This document shows, piece by piece, positions 56,380-60,499 of a stretch of 64,000 nt of DNA. The stretch lies in the sequence record PQ666542; one strand, 5' to 3'. Positions within the stretch are counted from its first letter, which is position 1. Each line of letters begins with the position of its first letter. The translations under genes and the position numbers were made by a program. The notes below the pieces were generated by a model. That model saw nothing but the letters and a program-made list of their open reading frames with translations. It ran no database searches and was not told the origin of the DNA. Origin of the DNA: Shigella phage sb4.

Positions 56380-59300
56380 ATGGCTACTTTAAAACAAATA
56401 CAATTTAAAAGAAGCAAAACCGCAGGAGCACGTCCTGCCGCTTCAGTATTAGCCGAAGGTGAATTGGCTATAAACTTAAAAGACCGTGTACTTTTTACTA
56501 AAGATGACCAAGGAAATATTATTGATCTGGGTTTTGCTAAAGGCGGTAGCATTGACGGGAATGTTATTCATATAGGAAACTATAATCAAACTGGTGATTA
56601 TACTTTAAATGGCACCTTCACTCAGACAGGTAATTTTAATTTAATCGGTATTGCTCGAGTAACTCGCGATATTATTGCCGCCGGGCAGATTATGACCGAA
56701 GGCGGAGAACTTATTACAAAAAGTTCAGGTACATCACATGTTCGTTTTTTCGATAGCAATAGCCGCGAACGTGGAATCATTTATTCACCGGCTAATGATG
56801 GATTAACTACACAAGTACTTAATATCAGGGTTCAAGACTACGCCGCTGGTAGCGAAAGCACTTATGCATTTTCAGGCAATGGCCTATTTACTTCACCTGA
56901 AGTATCAGCATGGAAATCTATGTCAACTCCTCAGATTTTGACCGATAAAGTTATTACTAATAATAAATCTACAGGTGATTATGACATTTATTCGATGGCA
57001 GATAATGTTCCACTGTCTGAAAGCACTACTGCTATTAATCATCTCCGTGTCATGCGTAATGCAGTCGGTTCTGGCATTTTCCATGAAGTTAAAGATAATG
57101 ATGGAATAACTTGGTACAGCGGAGATGGGCTAGACGCTTATCTTTGGTCATTTACATGGAGCGGCGGAATTAAATCGAGTCACTCAATTTCTATCGGTTT
57201 AACACCTGGCAATAAAGATTATTCAATACTAGGACCATCTAGTATTGCTCTTGGCGATAATGATACTGGATTTAAATGGCACCAGGATGGATATTATTTC
57301 AGCGTTAATAATGGAACGAAAACGTTTTTATTTAGCCCTAGCGAAACAACTAGCCTAAGAAAATTTGTAGCTGGATATTCTACTAACTGAACCGATTTAA
57401 CTACTCCTCCTACTGAAAATTATGCTCTCGCTACTGTCGTTACATATCATGATAATAACGCGTTTGGAGATGGTCAGACTCTTTTAGGTTATTATCAATG
57501 CGGTAATTATCATCACTATTTCCGCGGTAAGGGTACTACAAACATTAATACTCATGGCGGTTTATTAGTCACTCCTGGTAATATTGATGTTATTGGTGGT
57601 TCTGTTAATATCGATGGTAGAAATAATTCTTATACATTGATGTTTAGAGGTAACACGACTGGTATTAGTTCAGTTGATAATATGACAATTTCTGTATGGG
57701 GTAATACGTTTACTAATCCTAGTGTAGGTAATCGTAAAAATGTCATGGAAATTTCTGACCCAACTAGTTGGATGAGCTATATTCAAAGACTTACTACTGG
57801 CGAAGTAGAAATGAACGTTAATGGTTCATTTGAATCATCTGGTGTTACTGCTGGAGATAGAGGAGTTCACACAACAGGTGAAATTTCATCTGGAGCGGTG
57901 AATGCGCTTCGCATTTGGAACGCAGATTATGGTGCCATTTTCCGTCGTTCAGAAAACAGTCTTCATATTATTCCAACTGCCTATGGTGAAGGCAAAAATG
58001 GCGATATCGGTCCACTTCGTCCATTTAGTATGTCTTTAGATACAGGTAAGGTCGTTATTCCTGATTTAGATTTAAGTTATGCTTCTTTTGCCGCAAATGG
58101 TTATATTAAATTCGGCGGTCATGGCGCTGGCGCTGGCGGTTATGATATTCAGTATGTTCAAGCAGCTCCTGTTTTCCAGGAAATTGATGATGATGCTATA
58201 AGTAAATATTATCCTATTGTTAAACAGAAGTTTTTAAACGGTAAAGCTGTTTGGTCTTTAGGTACTGAATTTAATTCAGGTACACTTGTTTTACATCATT
58301 TAAAAGAAGATTGTCCACAAGGCCATACATCAAGATTTAATGCTGACGGTACAGTTAATTTCCCTGATAATGTTCAGGTTGGCGGTGGTGAAGCTACTAT
58401 TGCTCGAAATGGTAATATCTGGTCTGATATTTGGAAATCGTTTACTTCAGCAGGAGACACTACAATTATTCGTGATGCAATAGCTACTCGTGTTTCTAAA
58501 GAAGGCGATACGATGACCGGTAAGTTGACTTTATCTGCTGGAAATGATGCCCTTGTTTTAACTGCAGGCGCGGGTGCTTCATCGCACATCCGTAGTGATG
58601 TAGGTGGTACAGGTAACTGGTATATAGGCAAAGGCGGCGGCGATAATGGTCTAGGTTTTTATAGTTACATTACACAAGGCGGTGTATACATAACAAATAA
58701 CGGCGAAATATCGCTTTCTCCTCAAGGTCAAGGAACATTTAATTTTAATAGAGACCGCCTTCATATAAACGGTACACAATGGGTTGCGCATAAATCTGGC
58801 ATCTGGGATGACCAATGGGGTTTAGAAGCTCCGATATTTGTAGATTTTTGATCCGTCAGCAATGACTGCTATTATCCTATTATTAAAGGAAAATCTGGTA
58901 TTACTAACGAAGGATATTTTTCCGGCGTAGATTTTGGTATGCGACGCACTACTAATACCTGGGCGCAAGGTATTATTCGTGTAGGTAACCAGGAAAATGG
59001 TTCTGACCCACAAGCTATATATGAATTCCACTATAATGGAACTTTTTATGCCCCGAGCTTACTTAAGAGCAACAGATTATCAGCTGGCGGTGGTGACCCG
59101 GTGTGGACTGGGCCATGTCTTGTTATTGGTGATAATGATACTGGTTTAGTCCATGGCGGTGATGGCCGAATCAATATGGTTGCCAATGGTGTTCATATTG
59201 CAAACTGGGGCGCAGGCTATCAATCTCATCCTGGGCTTTGGGATTCAACCGGTGCTTTTTGGACAGAAGTTGGAAGAGCTATCGTTTCTCATGGGCATCT

Positions 59301-59688
59301 CGTTCAGGCAAATGATAGTTATTCAACGTTTGTCCGTGATGTTTATGTCCGTTCTGATATTCGCGTTAAAAAAGACCTCGTTAAATTTGAAAATGCTTCT
59401 CAGAAGCTTTCTAAATTTAACGGTTACACTTATATGCAGAAGCGAGGCCTGGATGAGGAAGGTAATCAGAAATGGGAACCTAACGCCGGTTTAATTGCTC
59501 AAGAAGTTCAAGCTATTTTACCAGAATTAGTTGAAGGTGACCCTGATGGTGAAGCTTTACTTCGTTTGAACTATAACGGTGTAATTGGTTTAAATACAGC
59601 TGCAATCAATGAGCATACCGCAGAAATTGCAGAACTTAAATCAGAAATCGAAGAACTTAAAGCATTAGTTAAATCATTGTTAAAATAA
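56380..59688 (+). pseudogene. 37: Long tail fiber distal subunit gp37 (T2-type with C-terminal coiled-coil chaperone segment), two in-frame TGA (57388-57390, 58849-58851)
   Basis: Three ORF pieces in one frame, 1103 codons; frame open between pieces except single TGAs. Confidence 0.85.
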
Positions 59689-59719
59689 TAAGAGGGGCTT
59701 CGGCCCCTTGGAGGTTTAT

Positions 59720-60499
59720 ATGGCAGTAACAGGACCGTGGGTAGGATCGTCTGCAGTAGTTAATACAGGACAAAATTGGATGGGTGGTGCGGCCCAACGA
59801 TTAAGAATGGGCATTCCGTTCTGGATGAGTAATATGATAGGTCGATCTGTTGAAGTAATTCACACGCTTGGAGCAGACCATAACTTCAATGGTCAATGGT
59901 TCCGAGATAGATGTTTTGAGGCAGGTAGTGCACCTATAGTGTTTAATATCACTGGAGATTTAGTATCATATTCTAGAGATGTTCCTTTATTCTTCATGTA
60001 CGGAGATACACCGAATGAATATGTTCAACTGAACATACACGGCGTAACGATGTATGGTCGTGGTGGGACTGGTTGGGCCGCTGGTGCAATTGGAGCATCT
60101 GATGGCGGTGTATGTATCCAGAATGATATAGGTGGACGTCTGCGAATTAATAATGGCGGAGCTATTGCCGGTGGCGGCGGCGGCGGCGGTGGTTATTCAC
60201 AAGCCAACAACTGGGCGGGAAAATATGTTTGGGGTGGCGGCGGCGGTCGTCCATTCGGCTTAGGCGGAAATAATGGTGCTCGATGGCCTGGTGGTAATGC
60301 TAGTTTGACGTCTCCGGGTGCTGGCGGTAATACTGGTACAGGGTATTATGCAGGTGGCGGTGGTGAAGTTGGTCAGCCAGGACAATATGCTAATCCAGGT
60401 GTTGGTTATTCAATACCTCCGACAAGTCCTGGCGCTGCTGTAGCAGGATCAGCTCCAACATGGCAGAATGTTGGAGCAATATATGGTTCAAGAGTATAA
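59720..60499 (+). CDS. 38: Receptor-recognising tail fiber adhesin gp38 (T2/T6-type, glycine-rich)
   Basis: Poly-Gly tracts (GGGGGGGG, GGGGG) separated by short variable segments. Confidence 0.85.

What the first reader, a model, noticed from the sequence alone, without database searches (positions are those of the whole stretch)
56380..60499. T2/T6-type distal tail fibre module (long gp37 plus glycine-rich gp38 adhesin)
gp38 (59720-60499) has polyglycine tracts flanking short variable segments, the architecture of the receptor-binding adhesin of T2/T6/K3-type phages, not the T4 gp38 chaperone. gp37 ends in a coiled-coil segment ([22 protein letters not shown]) typical of an intramolecular chaperone. 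This sets host range. gp37 also carries two in-frame TGA.
Basis: partly seen in the sequence, partly recalled or inferred. Interest (0 to 1): 0.45.

Follow-up and report, generated by a model that had tools for sequence, protein, structure and literature searches.

The report
OmpC-type phage tail-fibre adhesin module
This is the ordinary tail-fibre tip gene pair (gp37 fibre plus gp38 adhesin) of a T4-like Shigella/E. coli phage, nearly identical to the well-studied OmpC-binding AR1/PP01 type. The two stop codons inside gene 37 belong to about 50 probably artefactual stop codons scattered over the whole window.

Summary
Gene 37 (56380-59688, 1102 codons, one frame) is followed by gene 38 (59720-60499, 259 aa) and holin t. 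gp38 matches Pfam GP38 (8e-71) and Gp38_N, and shows no similarity to the T4 gp38 chaperone. Its glycine-rich motifs are conserved against T2/T6, while the segments between them are hypervariable. The gp37 C-terminus carries an intramolecular-chaperone domain (PF13884), a DVYVR|SDIRVKK autocleavage motif and a terminal coiled coil.

The module is not novel. It is 96.5% identical in DNA to Shigella phage pSs-1. gp38 is 95-98% identical to the PP01/AR1 adhesins and 97% identical to the PP01 gp38 crystal structure (9V85). The predicted receptor is therefore OmpC of the O157/Shigella type, not a T2/T6 receptor (46%/59% identity to those adhesins).

The two in-frame TGAs are real in the sequence. 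Each is a single G>T change of a conserved Gly codon. They are not special to gene 37. A three-way comparison shows 52 window-private stops (TAA, TGA and TAG) in about 30 genes, including essential ones, plus an excess of about 275 transversions. This is an unselected error or damage layer, not recoding.

The parts
55684..55691 (+). T4-type late promoter TATAAATA upstream of g36. Likely start of the g36-g37-g38(-t) late transcript.
   Evidence: Exact TATAAATA match. No such motif lies directly upstream of g37 or g38. A terminator-like hairpin at 55657-55676 precedes it. The transcript assignment is an inference by analogy with T4.
55715..56371 (+). g36, hinge/distal connector to which the gp37 N-terminus joins (context).
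   Evidence: Pfam Phage_T4_gp36 E=1.4e-26. Colinear with pSs-1 gp36.
56380..59688 (+). g37, long tail fibre distal subunit: 1102 codons in one frame, with two internal TGA.
   Evidence: Translation. 96.9% aa identity to pSs-1 gp37, 90% to AR1 and 85% to PP01. T4 gp37 aligns only over residues 1-640.
57388..57390 (+). In-frame TGA no. 1 (codon 337). This codon is GGA (Gly) in all close relatives.
   Evidence: It is a window-private G>T change. The TGA-bearing 33-mer is absent from the viral and metagenome collections, while the GGA version is present.
58849..58851 (+). In-frame TGA no. 2 (codon 824). This codon is a Gly codon (GGA/GGT) in relatives and Gly also in T6.
   Evidence: It is a window-private G>T change. 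The TGA-bearing 30-mer is absent from viral contigs.
59353..59685 (+). gp37 C-terminal intramolecular chaperone (IMC), residues 992-1102. Autocleavage is predicted between Arg991 (59350-59352) and Ser992 (59353-59355) in DVYVR|SDIRVKK. The terminal coiled coil lies at 59620-59685.
   Evidence: Pfam PF13884. Alignment to S16 gp37 6F45_A. Motif position. The S16 cleavage site DLNVS^SDRRIKK and release of its 113-aa IMC are described in PMC7917993. Cleavage in this protein is inferred, not shown.
59692..59709 (+). Intercistronic hairpin GAGGGGC-UUCG-GCCCCUU between the g37 stop and the g38 ribosome-binding site (GGAGG 59710-59714).
   Evidence: Sequence and fold at -14.1 kcal/mol. No T-run follows on the + strand. 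Its role as an RNA-stabilising C(UUCG)G-type hairpin is inferred from general knowledge of T4 intercistronic regions.
59720..60499 (+). g38, monomeric tail-fibre tip adhesin (259 aa). It has an N-terminal gp37-attachment domain (residues 1-40 match Gp38_N; Trp7, Trp20 and Trp35 are invariant) and a receptor-binding polyglycine domain (residues about 113-259, 60056-60496).
   Evidence: Pfam. 97% identity to PDB 9V85, the PP01 gp38 receptor-binding domain, and E=2e-53 to S16 gp38 6F45_D. Alignment A1. Segment identities.
60530..61186 (+). Holin t (context, downstream boundary of the module).
   Evidence: Pfam Phage_holin_T E=1e-115. A terminator-like hairpin at 61229-61261 follows.

Best explanation
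The region is the distal long-tail-fibre module of a Tequatrovirus closely related to Shigella phage pSs-1, and it is of the T2-type architecture.

Inferred mechanism, from close homologues:
- gp37 trimerises with the help of its own C-terminal intramolecular chaperone.
- That 111-residue chaperone (residues 992-1102, ending in the coiled coil) is autocleaved at DVYVR|SDIRVKK and leaves.
- Cleavage exposes a flat trimeric tip. One gp38 monomer docks on it through its N-terminal, Trp-bearing attachment domain.
- The gp38 glycine-rich motifs fold into a polyglycine-II sandwich. The hypervariable loops project from it and bind the receptor.

The loops are those of PP01/AR1 gp38, so the receptor is most likely OmpC of the E. 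coli O157/Shigella type. In PP01, loop E inserts into the cleft between OmpC loops 5 and 7, with loops B and D supporting it. Shown here: sequence, family membership, and near-identity to characterised proteins. Inferred: cleavage, docking and receptor.

The two in-frame TGAs are single G>T changes of conserved Gly codons. They belong to a window-wide layer of about 275 excess, unselected transversions (C>A, G>T, A>T, T>A) that creates about 50 stops in about 30 genes. They are most likely sequence errors or template damage in this record. They are not a feature of the gene.
For: Family and architecture:
- Pfam GP38 and Gp38_N on gp38; PF13884 on the gp37 C-terminus; gp36 and holin T flank the pair.
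- The PDB search gives 9V85 (PP01 gp38 receptor-binding domain, E=3e-139, about 97% identity over residues 37-259) and 6F45_D/6F45_A (the S16 gp38-gp37 tip complex).
- Conserved Gly motifs against hypervariable segments.

Lineage:
- 96.5% DNA identity to pSs-1 over the 4120 nt, and 118 phage records covering at least 80% of it.
- gp38 is 98.1% identical to KNP5/EC121, 96.9% to AR1 and 95.0% to PP01.

Receptor:
- PP01 uses OmpC. The functional residues Y159, K168, Y169, G208, Y209 and Y230 are all present in the window protein.
- The window's A228V was shown experimentally to preserve infectivity in PP01 (PMC12892980; residues checked).
- AR1 also uses OmpC (own knowledge: Yu et al. 2000, J Bacteriol 182:5962; the title is listed).

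IMC cleavage: the S16 precedent is in PMC7917993.

Stops as an unselected layer:
- Both TGAs correspond to Gly codons in pSs-1, ECp13, AR1, KNP5, PP01, EC121 and sb2.
- Window versus pSs-1 versus sb2 over 19,957 codons gives private changes of 637 synonymous / 483 nonsynonymous / 52 stops for the window, 547/164/0 for pSs-1 and 708/245/2 for sb2.
- Private transversions number 518 against 169 and 279.
- The stops are of all three kinds and replace 11 different amino acids.
- They fall in essential genes, including gp24, uvsW, gp26/27/28/48, DNA ligase, nrdA, td, gp59 and motA.
- In the g37-g38-t stretch, 19 of 24 window-private changes are nonsynonymous.
Against: - No experiment links this particular gp38 to OmpC. 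Four window-private substitutions lie in or beside the receptor-binding domain (N117T, C171W, A228V, T232I). Only A228V has been tested, and only in PP01. If they are real, they could shift specificity.
- The physical origin of the substitution layer is undetermined. It is substitution-dominated (26 gap openings in 64 kb), which is unlike typical long-read error.
- The C>A changes favour TTCT[T/A] contexts.
- Stops are about twice as frequent as uniform placement of the excess spectrum predicts (27 expected, 52 seen). The process is therefore context-biased and not fully understood.
- I could not find the source record or reads.
Confidence: 0.85

Rival explanations
1. The two TGAs, and the other stops, are genuine mutations. 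On this reading the record is a truly defective, non-viable or heavily mutagenised T-even genome in which gene 37 is a pseudogene giving a 336-aa fragment.
For: The stops are present in the sequence as given. The excess spectrum of G:C>T:A plus A:T>T:A resembles what insertion of A opposite abasic or oxidised purines would produce. That comparison is own knowledge, an inference, and such damage could occur in real DNA molecules.
Against: About 50 nonsense codons and several frameshifts fall in essential genes. That is incompatible with a propagating phage, yet synteny and synonymous divergence are those of a normal Tequatrovirus. The TGA-bearing sequences occur in no other public contig searched.
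Confidence: 0.08
2. The in-frame TGAs are decoded, through stop-codon reassignment, programmed readthrough, selenocysteine or a phage suppressor tRNA, so that full-length gp37 is made.
For: Both TGAs replace the same amino acid, Gly, via GGA>TGA. TGA is naturally the leakiest stop codon in E. coli (own knowledge).
Against: Window-wide, the in-frame stops are 36 TAA, 8 TGA and 6 TAG. They replace E, K, G, S, C, L, Y, W, Q, R and F, which gives no coherent code. No tRNA gene lies in the window. Seven close relatives encode plain Gly at both sites. Genuine gene ends in the window use the same stop codons.
Confidence: 0.01
3. gp38 here recognises a receptor other than OmpC, for example Tsx, OmpA, OmpF or FadL as in T6, K3/Ox2 and T2, or a different OmpC variant from the one PP01 uses.
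For: Small changes in the hypervariable segments can switch the receptor (PMC12032242; PMC12892980 introduction). The window has private changes in loop E (A228V, T232I), next to loop B (C171W) and in the first Gly-rich motif (N117T). Phages with this adhesin type are reported on both Shigella and O157.
Against: All four hypervariable segments are otherwise identical to AR1/PP01 and almost unrelated to T2/T6, at 1-2 identities per 10-14 residues in loops A and B. All residues shown to matter in PP01 are conserved, and A228V is tolerated. Closely related gp38s recognise the same receptor (PMC12032242). The private changes may themselves be errors, since 79% of private changes in this stretch are nonsynonymous.
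Confidence: 0.1
4. gp38 is a T4-type assembly chaperone that is released after gp37 folding, and gp37 itself binds the receptor.
For: The gene position between g37 and t is the same as in T4.
Against: There is no sequence similarity to T4 gp38 (E=22). T4 gp37 aligns only to residues 1-640 and not to the tip. Strong matches exist to the adhesin families and to the adhesin crystal structures.
Confidence: 0.01

Closest known systems
Escherichia phage PP01 gp38 (crystal structure PDB 9V85; Terasaki et al., mBio 2026, PMC12892980)
   Same: Same length (259 aa) and 95% identity overall. About 97% identity over the crystallised receptor-binding domain. Loops A-D are identical. The functional residues Y159, K168, Y169, G208, Y209 and Y230 are conserved.
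   Different: Eight differences in the N-terminal 19 residues (the attachment domain follows the AR1/pSs-1 version). Further differences are N117T, C171W, A228V, T232I and N236S. The partner gp37 is only 85% identical.
Shigella phage pSs-1 g37-g38 (NC_025829, pSs1_00255/00256), with its relatives KNP5, EC121, ECp13, sb3, Sfk20 and HY01
   Same: The whole window is colinear with pSs-1 at 96.7% identity. The module is 96.5% identical in DNA, gp37 is 96.9% identical and gp38 is 97-98% identical. Gene order is the same: 34-35-36-37-38-t.
   Different: The relatives have an uninterrupted g37. The window has two TGAs and 22 further private substitutions in g37-g38-t, mostly nonsynonymous.
Escherichia phage AR1 g37-g38 (AF208841 / NC_027983), OmpC-dependent O157:H7 phage
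   Same: gp38 is 96.9% identical and gp37 is 90% identical, with the same architecture and the same IMC tail.
   Different: The gp37 segment of about residues 900-975, just before the cleavage site, follows the pSs-1 variant rather than the AR1/ECp13 variant. AR1 has G208R and S257P.
Salmonella phage S16 gp37 tip-gp38 complex (PDB 6F45; Dunne et al. 2018)
   Same: Homologous over the full gp38 (E=2e-53) and over the gp37 tip plus IMC (E=7e-44). It has the same S-D-x-R-x-K-K cleavage motif and a C-terminal coiled coil.
   Different: It is much more distant in sequence and comes from a different genus. The loops differ, although the receptor is also OmpC (of Salmonella).
T2 and T6 gp38 adhesins
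   Same: Same family and modular plan. The Gly-rich motifs and the N- and C-termini are conserved.
   Different: Only 46% (T2) and 59% (T6) identity. The hypervariable segments are essentially unrelated. Their receptors are FadL/OmpF for T2 and Tsx for T6 (own knowledge). gp37 is 30-48% identical over parts only.
T4 gp38 (tail-fibre assembly chaperone, 183 aa)
   Same: Same genomic slot between g37 and t.
   Different: An unrelated protein (E=22). T4 gp37 carries its own receptor-binding tip and does not align beyond residue 640.

Membership tests
T2-type gp38 tail-fibre adhesin (Pfam GP38 PF05268 + Gp38_N PF21721) | Sequence matches to both family profiles above the curated cut-offs, covering the whole protein. 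| tested here: met
   PF05268: 238.7 bits (cut-off 25), residues 45-259 on profile positions 1-218 of 218. PF21721: 76.7 bits, residues 1-40 on profile positions 1-40 of 40.
T2-type gp38 tail-fibre adhesin | Conserved glycine-rich motifs alternating with hypervariable segments in the C-terminal half. | tested here: met
   Against T2/T6 the Gly-rich motifs are 69-97% identical and the hypervariable segments 7-43% identical. Gly runs at residues 151-158, 172-176 and 212-215.
T2-type gp38 tail-fibre adhesin | Polyglycine-II sandwich fold with protruding loops. | tested here: met
   Tested by sequence only: about 97% identity over residues 37-259 to the solved PP01 gp38 receptor-binding domain (9V85), and full-length homology to S16 gp38 (6F45_D). 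No structure was predicted here.
T2-type gp38 tail-fibre adhesin | N-terminal attachment domain with conserved tryptophans that dock on the gp37 tip. | tested here: met
   W7, W20 and W35 are invariant across the window, pSs-1, KNP5, EC121, AR1, PP01, T2 and T6. Their role is described in PMC7917993. Docking itself was not tested.
T2-type gp38 tail-fibre adhesin | Gene located immediately downstream of g37 and upstream of holin t. | tested here: met
T2-type gp38 tail-fibre adhesin | The protein is present in the virion at the fibre tip and binds an outer-membrane protein. | not testable with these tools
   This needs virion proteomics and adsorption assays. It has been shown for PP01, which is 95% identical (PMC12892980).
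OmpC-binding AR1/PP01 subgroup of gp38 | Receptor-recognition loops B, D and E carry the residues shown to be required in PP01 (Y159, K168/Y169, Y209, a hydrophobic residue at 228, and an intact loop E around Y230). | tested here: met
   All are conserved. Residue 228 is Val, and A228V retained infectivity in PP01. T232I in loop E and C171W next to loop B are untested.
T2-type gp37 with C-terminal intramolecular chaperone (Peptidase_S74 / endosialidase-chaperone type) | A PF13884 domain near the C-terminus, preceded by the S-D-x-R-x-K-K autocleavage motif and followed by a coiled coil. | tested here: met
   PF13884 at 48 bits (cut-off 22). DVYVR|SDIRVKK lies at residues 987-998. It aligns to S16 DLNVS|SDRRIKK.
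T2-type gp37 with C-terminal intramolecular chaperone | Proteolytic release of the roughly 110-residue C-terminal fragment after trimerisation. | not testable with these tools
   Inferred from S16 and from T2 (own knowledge: Drexler et al. 1986).
T2-type gp37 with C-terminal intramolecular chaperone | An uninterrupted open reading frame. | tested here: not met
   Two in-frame TGAs. These are attributed to the window-wide error layer, so the failure reflects the record rather than the gene family.
T4-type gp38 assembly chaperone | Sequence similarity to T4 gp38 (183 aa). | tested here: not met
   BLASTP E=22. No chaperone family appears among the Pfam hits.
Stop-codon reassignment / programmed readthrough | A single stop-codon type in-frame, consistently replacing one amino acid, together with a cognate tRNA. 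| tested here: not met
   All three stop types occur and 11 different amino acids are replaced. No tRNA gene lies in the window.

The most novel reading that the evidence does not exclude
The roughly 50 in-frame stops and the roughly 275 excess transversions towards A/T could be real bases of a physical DNA molecule rather than sequencing or assembly errors. The record would then capture a T-even phage genome after massive unselected G:C>T:A and A:T>T:A mutagenesis, for instance lesion bypass on depurinated or oxidised DNA, or a polymerase mutator. The g37 TGAs would be part of a natural hypermutation event. A milder variant of this reading is that the four private gp38 changes (N117T, C171W, A228V, T232I) are real and retune OmpC-variant specificity.
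Probability: 0.04. Interest if true: 0.5.

Novelty: already known. Interest (0 to 1): 0.12.

Why it matters
The module sets host range, so assigning it to the OmpC-binding AR1/PP01 class is useful for annotation and for choosing or engineering phages against O157 and Shigella. It adds nothing new to biology, because a 95-97% identical adhesin has a crystal structure and a mapped receptor interface.

The practical lesson concerns data quality. This window carries about 0.4% unselected transversions and about 50 false stops. Any 'in-frame stop', 'pseudogene' or 'unusual substitution' finding from this window should be discounted until the sequence is verified.

Tried and rejected
- Stop-codon recoding or readthrough of TGA as Gly. 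Rejected because all three stop types occur in-frame window-wide and replace 11 different amino acids, and the window holds no tRNA gene.
- T4-type chaperone identity of gp38. Rejected.
- Finding the source record or an independent copy of the TGA alleles. There was no exact gp38 product on record. The TGA-bearing 30-33-mers are absent from viral contigs and metagenome contigs, while the wild-type GGA 33-mer is present.
- A simple sequence motif for the error layer. I found only a moderate preference of C>A for TTCT[T/A] and of new bases matching a neighbour (0.49 against 0.40-0.43). This is not diagnostic of a particular technology.
- Uniform random placement of the excess spectrum. It predicts 27 stops against 52 observed, so a purely context-free damage model is too simple.
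- The alternative upstream TTG start at 59708 for g38. Rejected in favour of ATG 59720, which has the GGAGG site and matches the pSs-1/AR1/PP01 annotations.
- The AR1 receptor paper (PMC94728) could not be read, so that point rests on my own knowledge.
- No structure prediction was run. A 97%-identical solved structure made it unnecessary.
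Full report
WHAT IS THERE. The stretch 50659-61186 carries, on the + strand, the canonical T-even long-tail-fibre gene series: g34 (50659-54528), g35 (54537-55652), g36 (55715-56371), g37 (56380-59688) and g38 (59720-60499), followed by holin t (60530-61186). Translation of 56380-59688 in one frame gives 1102 codons. It is interrupted by exactly two TGAs, at 57388-57390 (AAC TGA ACC) and 58849-58851 (TTT TGA TCC).

GP38 IS A T2-TYPE ADHESIN.
- The 259-aa product matches Pfam GP38 (PF05268, E=8.3e-71, full profile) and Gp38_N (PF21721, E=1.3e-21).
- It aligns end to end with T2 gp38 (46% identity, E=6e-39) and T6 gp38 (59%, E=2e-69). It shows nothing against T4 gp38 (E=22).
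- Against T2/T6, the glycine-rich motifs (GRGGx[13 protein letters not shown], [12 protein letters not shown], GGGGEVG) and the termini are 69-97% identical. The four intervening segments are 7-43% identical.
- This is exactly the conserved-motif and hypervariable-segment plan described for the family (PMC12032242; PMC12892980).
- The local G+C rise to 0.52 reflects the GGN-rich coding.

WHICH ADHESIN. By sequence the module belongs to the AR1/PP01/pSs-1 lineage, not to T2 or T6.
- The 4120 nt are 96.5% identical to Shigella phage pSs-1.
- gp38 is 98.1% identical to KNP5/EC121, 97.3% to pSs-1, 96.9% to AR1/HY01 and 95.0% to PP01.
- gp37 is 96.9% identical to pSs-1, 90% to AR1 and 85% to PP01. 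It matches T2/T6 at 30-48% over parts only. T4 gp37 aligns only to residues 1-640.
- The PDB search returns 9V85, the sfGFP-fused PP01 gp38 receptor-binding domain, at E=3e-139 (about 97% identity over residues 37-259), and the S16 gp38 chain 6F45_D at E=2e-53.

RECEPTOR.
- The paper describing 9V85 (PMC12892980) shows that PP01 gp38 binds OmpC of E. coli O157.
- In that work, loop E (Ala228, Tyr230) enters a cleft between OmpC loops 5 and 7, and the GVIN insertion is needed. Tyr209 (loop D) and Tyr159/Lys168/Tyr169 (loop B) are also required.
- In the window protein all of these residues are present, except that residue 228 is Val. A228V retained infectivity in that study.
- AR1 also uses OmpC (own knowledge: Yu et al. 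2000; the title is listed).
- Closely related gp38s recognise the same receptor, and OmpC binders form a small group (PMC12032242).
- I therefore predict OmpC of the O157/Shigella type with about 0.8 confidence. This is an inference from near-identity, not a demonstration.

GP37 C-TERMINUS.
- The last 278 residues match Pfam Peptidase_S74, 'chaperone of endosialidase' (E=1.6e-12), and the S16 gp37 tip chain 6F45_A (E=7e-44).
- The motif DVYVR|SDIRVKK (Ser992, 59353-59355) aligns with S16 DLNVS|SDRRIKK. In S16, autocleavage at that site releases a 113-residue intramolecular chaperone and exposes the gp38 docking surface (PMC7917993 citing Dunne et al. 2018).
- The gp38 tryptophans said to act as docking prongs (W7, W20, W35) are invariant in alignment A1.

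EXPRESSION CONTEXT.
- T4-type late promoters (TATAAATA) lie at 50617, before g34, and at 55684, before g36. None lies directly before g37 or g38.
- Terminator-like hairpins lie at 55657-55676 and 61229-61261.
- By analogy with T4, g36-g37-g38(-t) is therefore probably one late transcript.
- Between the g37 stop and the g38 Shine-Dalgarno sits a GAGGGGC-UUCG-GCCCCUU hairpin (59692-59709, -14.1 kcal/mol) with no T-run on the + strand.

THE TWO TGA CODONS.
- Both correspond to glycine codons in every close relative examined: pSs-1, ECp13, AR1, KNP5, PP01, EC121 and sb2. Codon 337 is GGA throughout; codon 824 is GGA or GGT. Gly824 is also conserved in T6.
- Each TGA is a single window-private G>T change.

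THE STOPS ARE WINDOW-WIDE.
- The window is colinear with pSs-1 bases 100977-164999 at 96.7% identity.
- I mapped the 89 pSs-1 coding sequences onto the window. About 30 carry in-frame stops, and several carry 1-nt frameshifts.
- Codon by codon there are 36 TAA, 8 TGA and 6 TAG. They replace E, K, G, S, C, L, Y, W, Q, R and F.
- The affected genes include gp24, rnlB, uvsW, gp26, gp27, gp28, gp48, both alt-like genes, DNA ligase, rnlA, nrdA, td, gp59, dsbA and motA (gene names).

THE LAYER IS UNSELECTED.
- I polarised the changes with a second relative, sb2, over 19,957 codons. Window-private changes are 637 synonymous, 483 nonsynonymous and 52 stops. The figures are 547/164/0 for pSs-1 and 708/245/2 for sb2.
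- Private transitions are similar in the three genomes (711, 582, 722). Private transversions are 518 against 169 and 279. The excess is C>A, G>T, A>T and T>A.
- Scaling by transitions, about 275 transversions (about 0.4% of bases) are in excess.
- Within g37-g38-t, 19 of 24 window-private changes are nonsynonymous, compared with 36-64% in six relatives.
- The window therefore carries an unselected substitution layer on top of normal divergence, and the g37 TGAs belong to it.

ORIGIN OF THE LAYER. I cannot determine where the layer comes from.
- It is substitution-dominated, with 26 gap openings in 64 kb.
- It is partly clustered.
- Its C>A changes favour TTCT[T/A].
- It yields about twice as many stops as context-free placement predicts (27 against 52).
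- Candidates are oxidative or abasic-site template damage with low coverage, base-calling trouble on modified T-even DNA, or some other corruption of the record. These candidates are my inference only.
- The TGA-bearing 30-33-mers are absent from the viral and metagenome contig collections, while the GGA version is present. No gene with exactly this gp38 product is on record.

REJECTED ALTERNATIVES.
- Recoding or readthrough is excluded by the mix of stop types and replaced residues and by the absence of tRNA genes.
- A real nonsense-laden genome cannot be a propagating phage. I leave about 8% for the stops being true bases of a defective or damaged molecule.
- A different receptor remains possible at about 10%. 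Four private substitutions lie in or near the binding domain (N117T, C171W, A228V, T232I), but given the error layer these may not be real.

VERDICT. The module is an already known kind, in a nearly identical copy. The refinement is its assignment to the OmpC-binding AR1/PP01 class. The one oddity, the in-frame TGAs, is a data-quality matter that affects the whole window. Interest is low.

Noticed in passing
window 1-64000 (examples: 8276, 12645, 16040, 17418, 21263, 27851, 39059, 45023, 48549, 63546): About 50-52 window-private in-frame stop codons (36 TAA, 8 TGA, 6 TAG) fall in about 30 of 89 genes, many of them essential. They come with an excess of about 275 C>A/G>T/A>T/T>A transversions relative to pSs-1 and sb2. 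The window sequence as a whole appears to carry about 0.4% unselected substitutions.
   Followed up: yes
window 26066-26147; 43371-43467; 9742-9796: There are tight clusters of premature stops. Four GAA>TAA changes fall within 82 nt of an alt-like gene, four stops within 97 nt of nrdA, and three within 55 nt at the start of rnlB. Many arise from TTCT>TTAT-type changes.
   Followed up: partly
window 15271-15668; 30873-31239; 35667-35796; 36057-36964: There are single-base or 2-nt length differences (frameshifts) relative to pSs-1 in the gp25 homologue, two small ORFs and polynucleotide kinase pseT. Indels are much rarer than substitutions in the anomalous layer.
   Followed up: partly
window 59692-59709: A GAGGGGC-UUCG-GCCCCUU hairpin with a UUCG tetraloop lies between the g37 stop codon and the g38 Shine-Dalgarno. 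No T-run follows on the + strand, so it is probably an intercistronic RNA-stability element rather than a terminator.
   Followed up: partly
window 12506-12525: Three overlapping copies of the late-promoter motif TATAAATA (TATAAATATAAATATAAATA) lie just upstream of the uvsW homologue, which starts at 12549.
   Followed up: no
window 60069, 60232, 60402, 60414 (gp38 codons 117, 171, 228, 232): Four window-private amino-acid changes occur in the adhesin: N117T, C171W, A228V and T232I. Two lie in receptor loop E. A228V is known to be tolerated in PP01. Given the error layer, their reality is uncertain.
   Followed up: partly
window 55657-55676 and 61229-61261: Terminator-like hairpins bracket the g36-g37-g38-t block. 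The first is followed at once by the late promoter at 55684. The second lies between the convergent genes t and asiA.
   Followed up: no
L013/L014 (Shigella phage sb2, PQ666540.1), gp34 region 151695-155564 of the record: The related public record sb2 has gp34 annotated in two pieces and shows 2 private in-frame stops in the three-way comparison. Imperfect records exist among the relatives too, though at a far lower rate than in the window.
   Followed up: no
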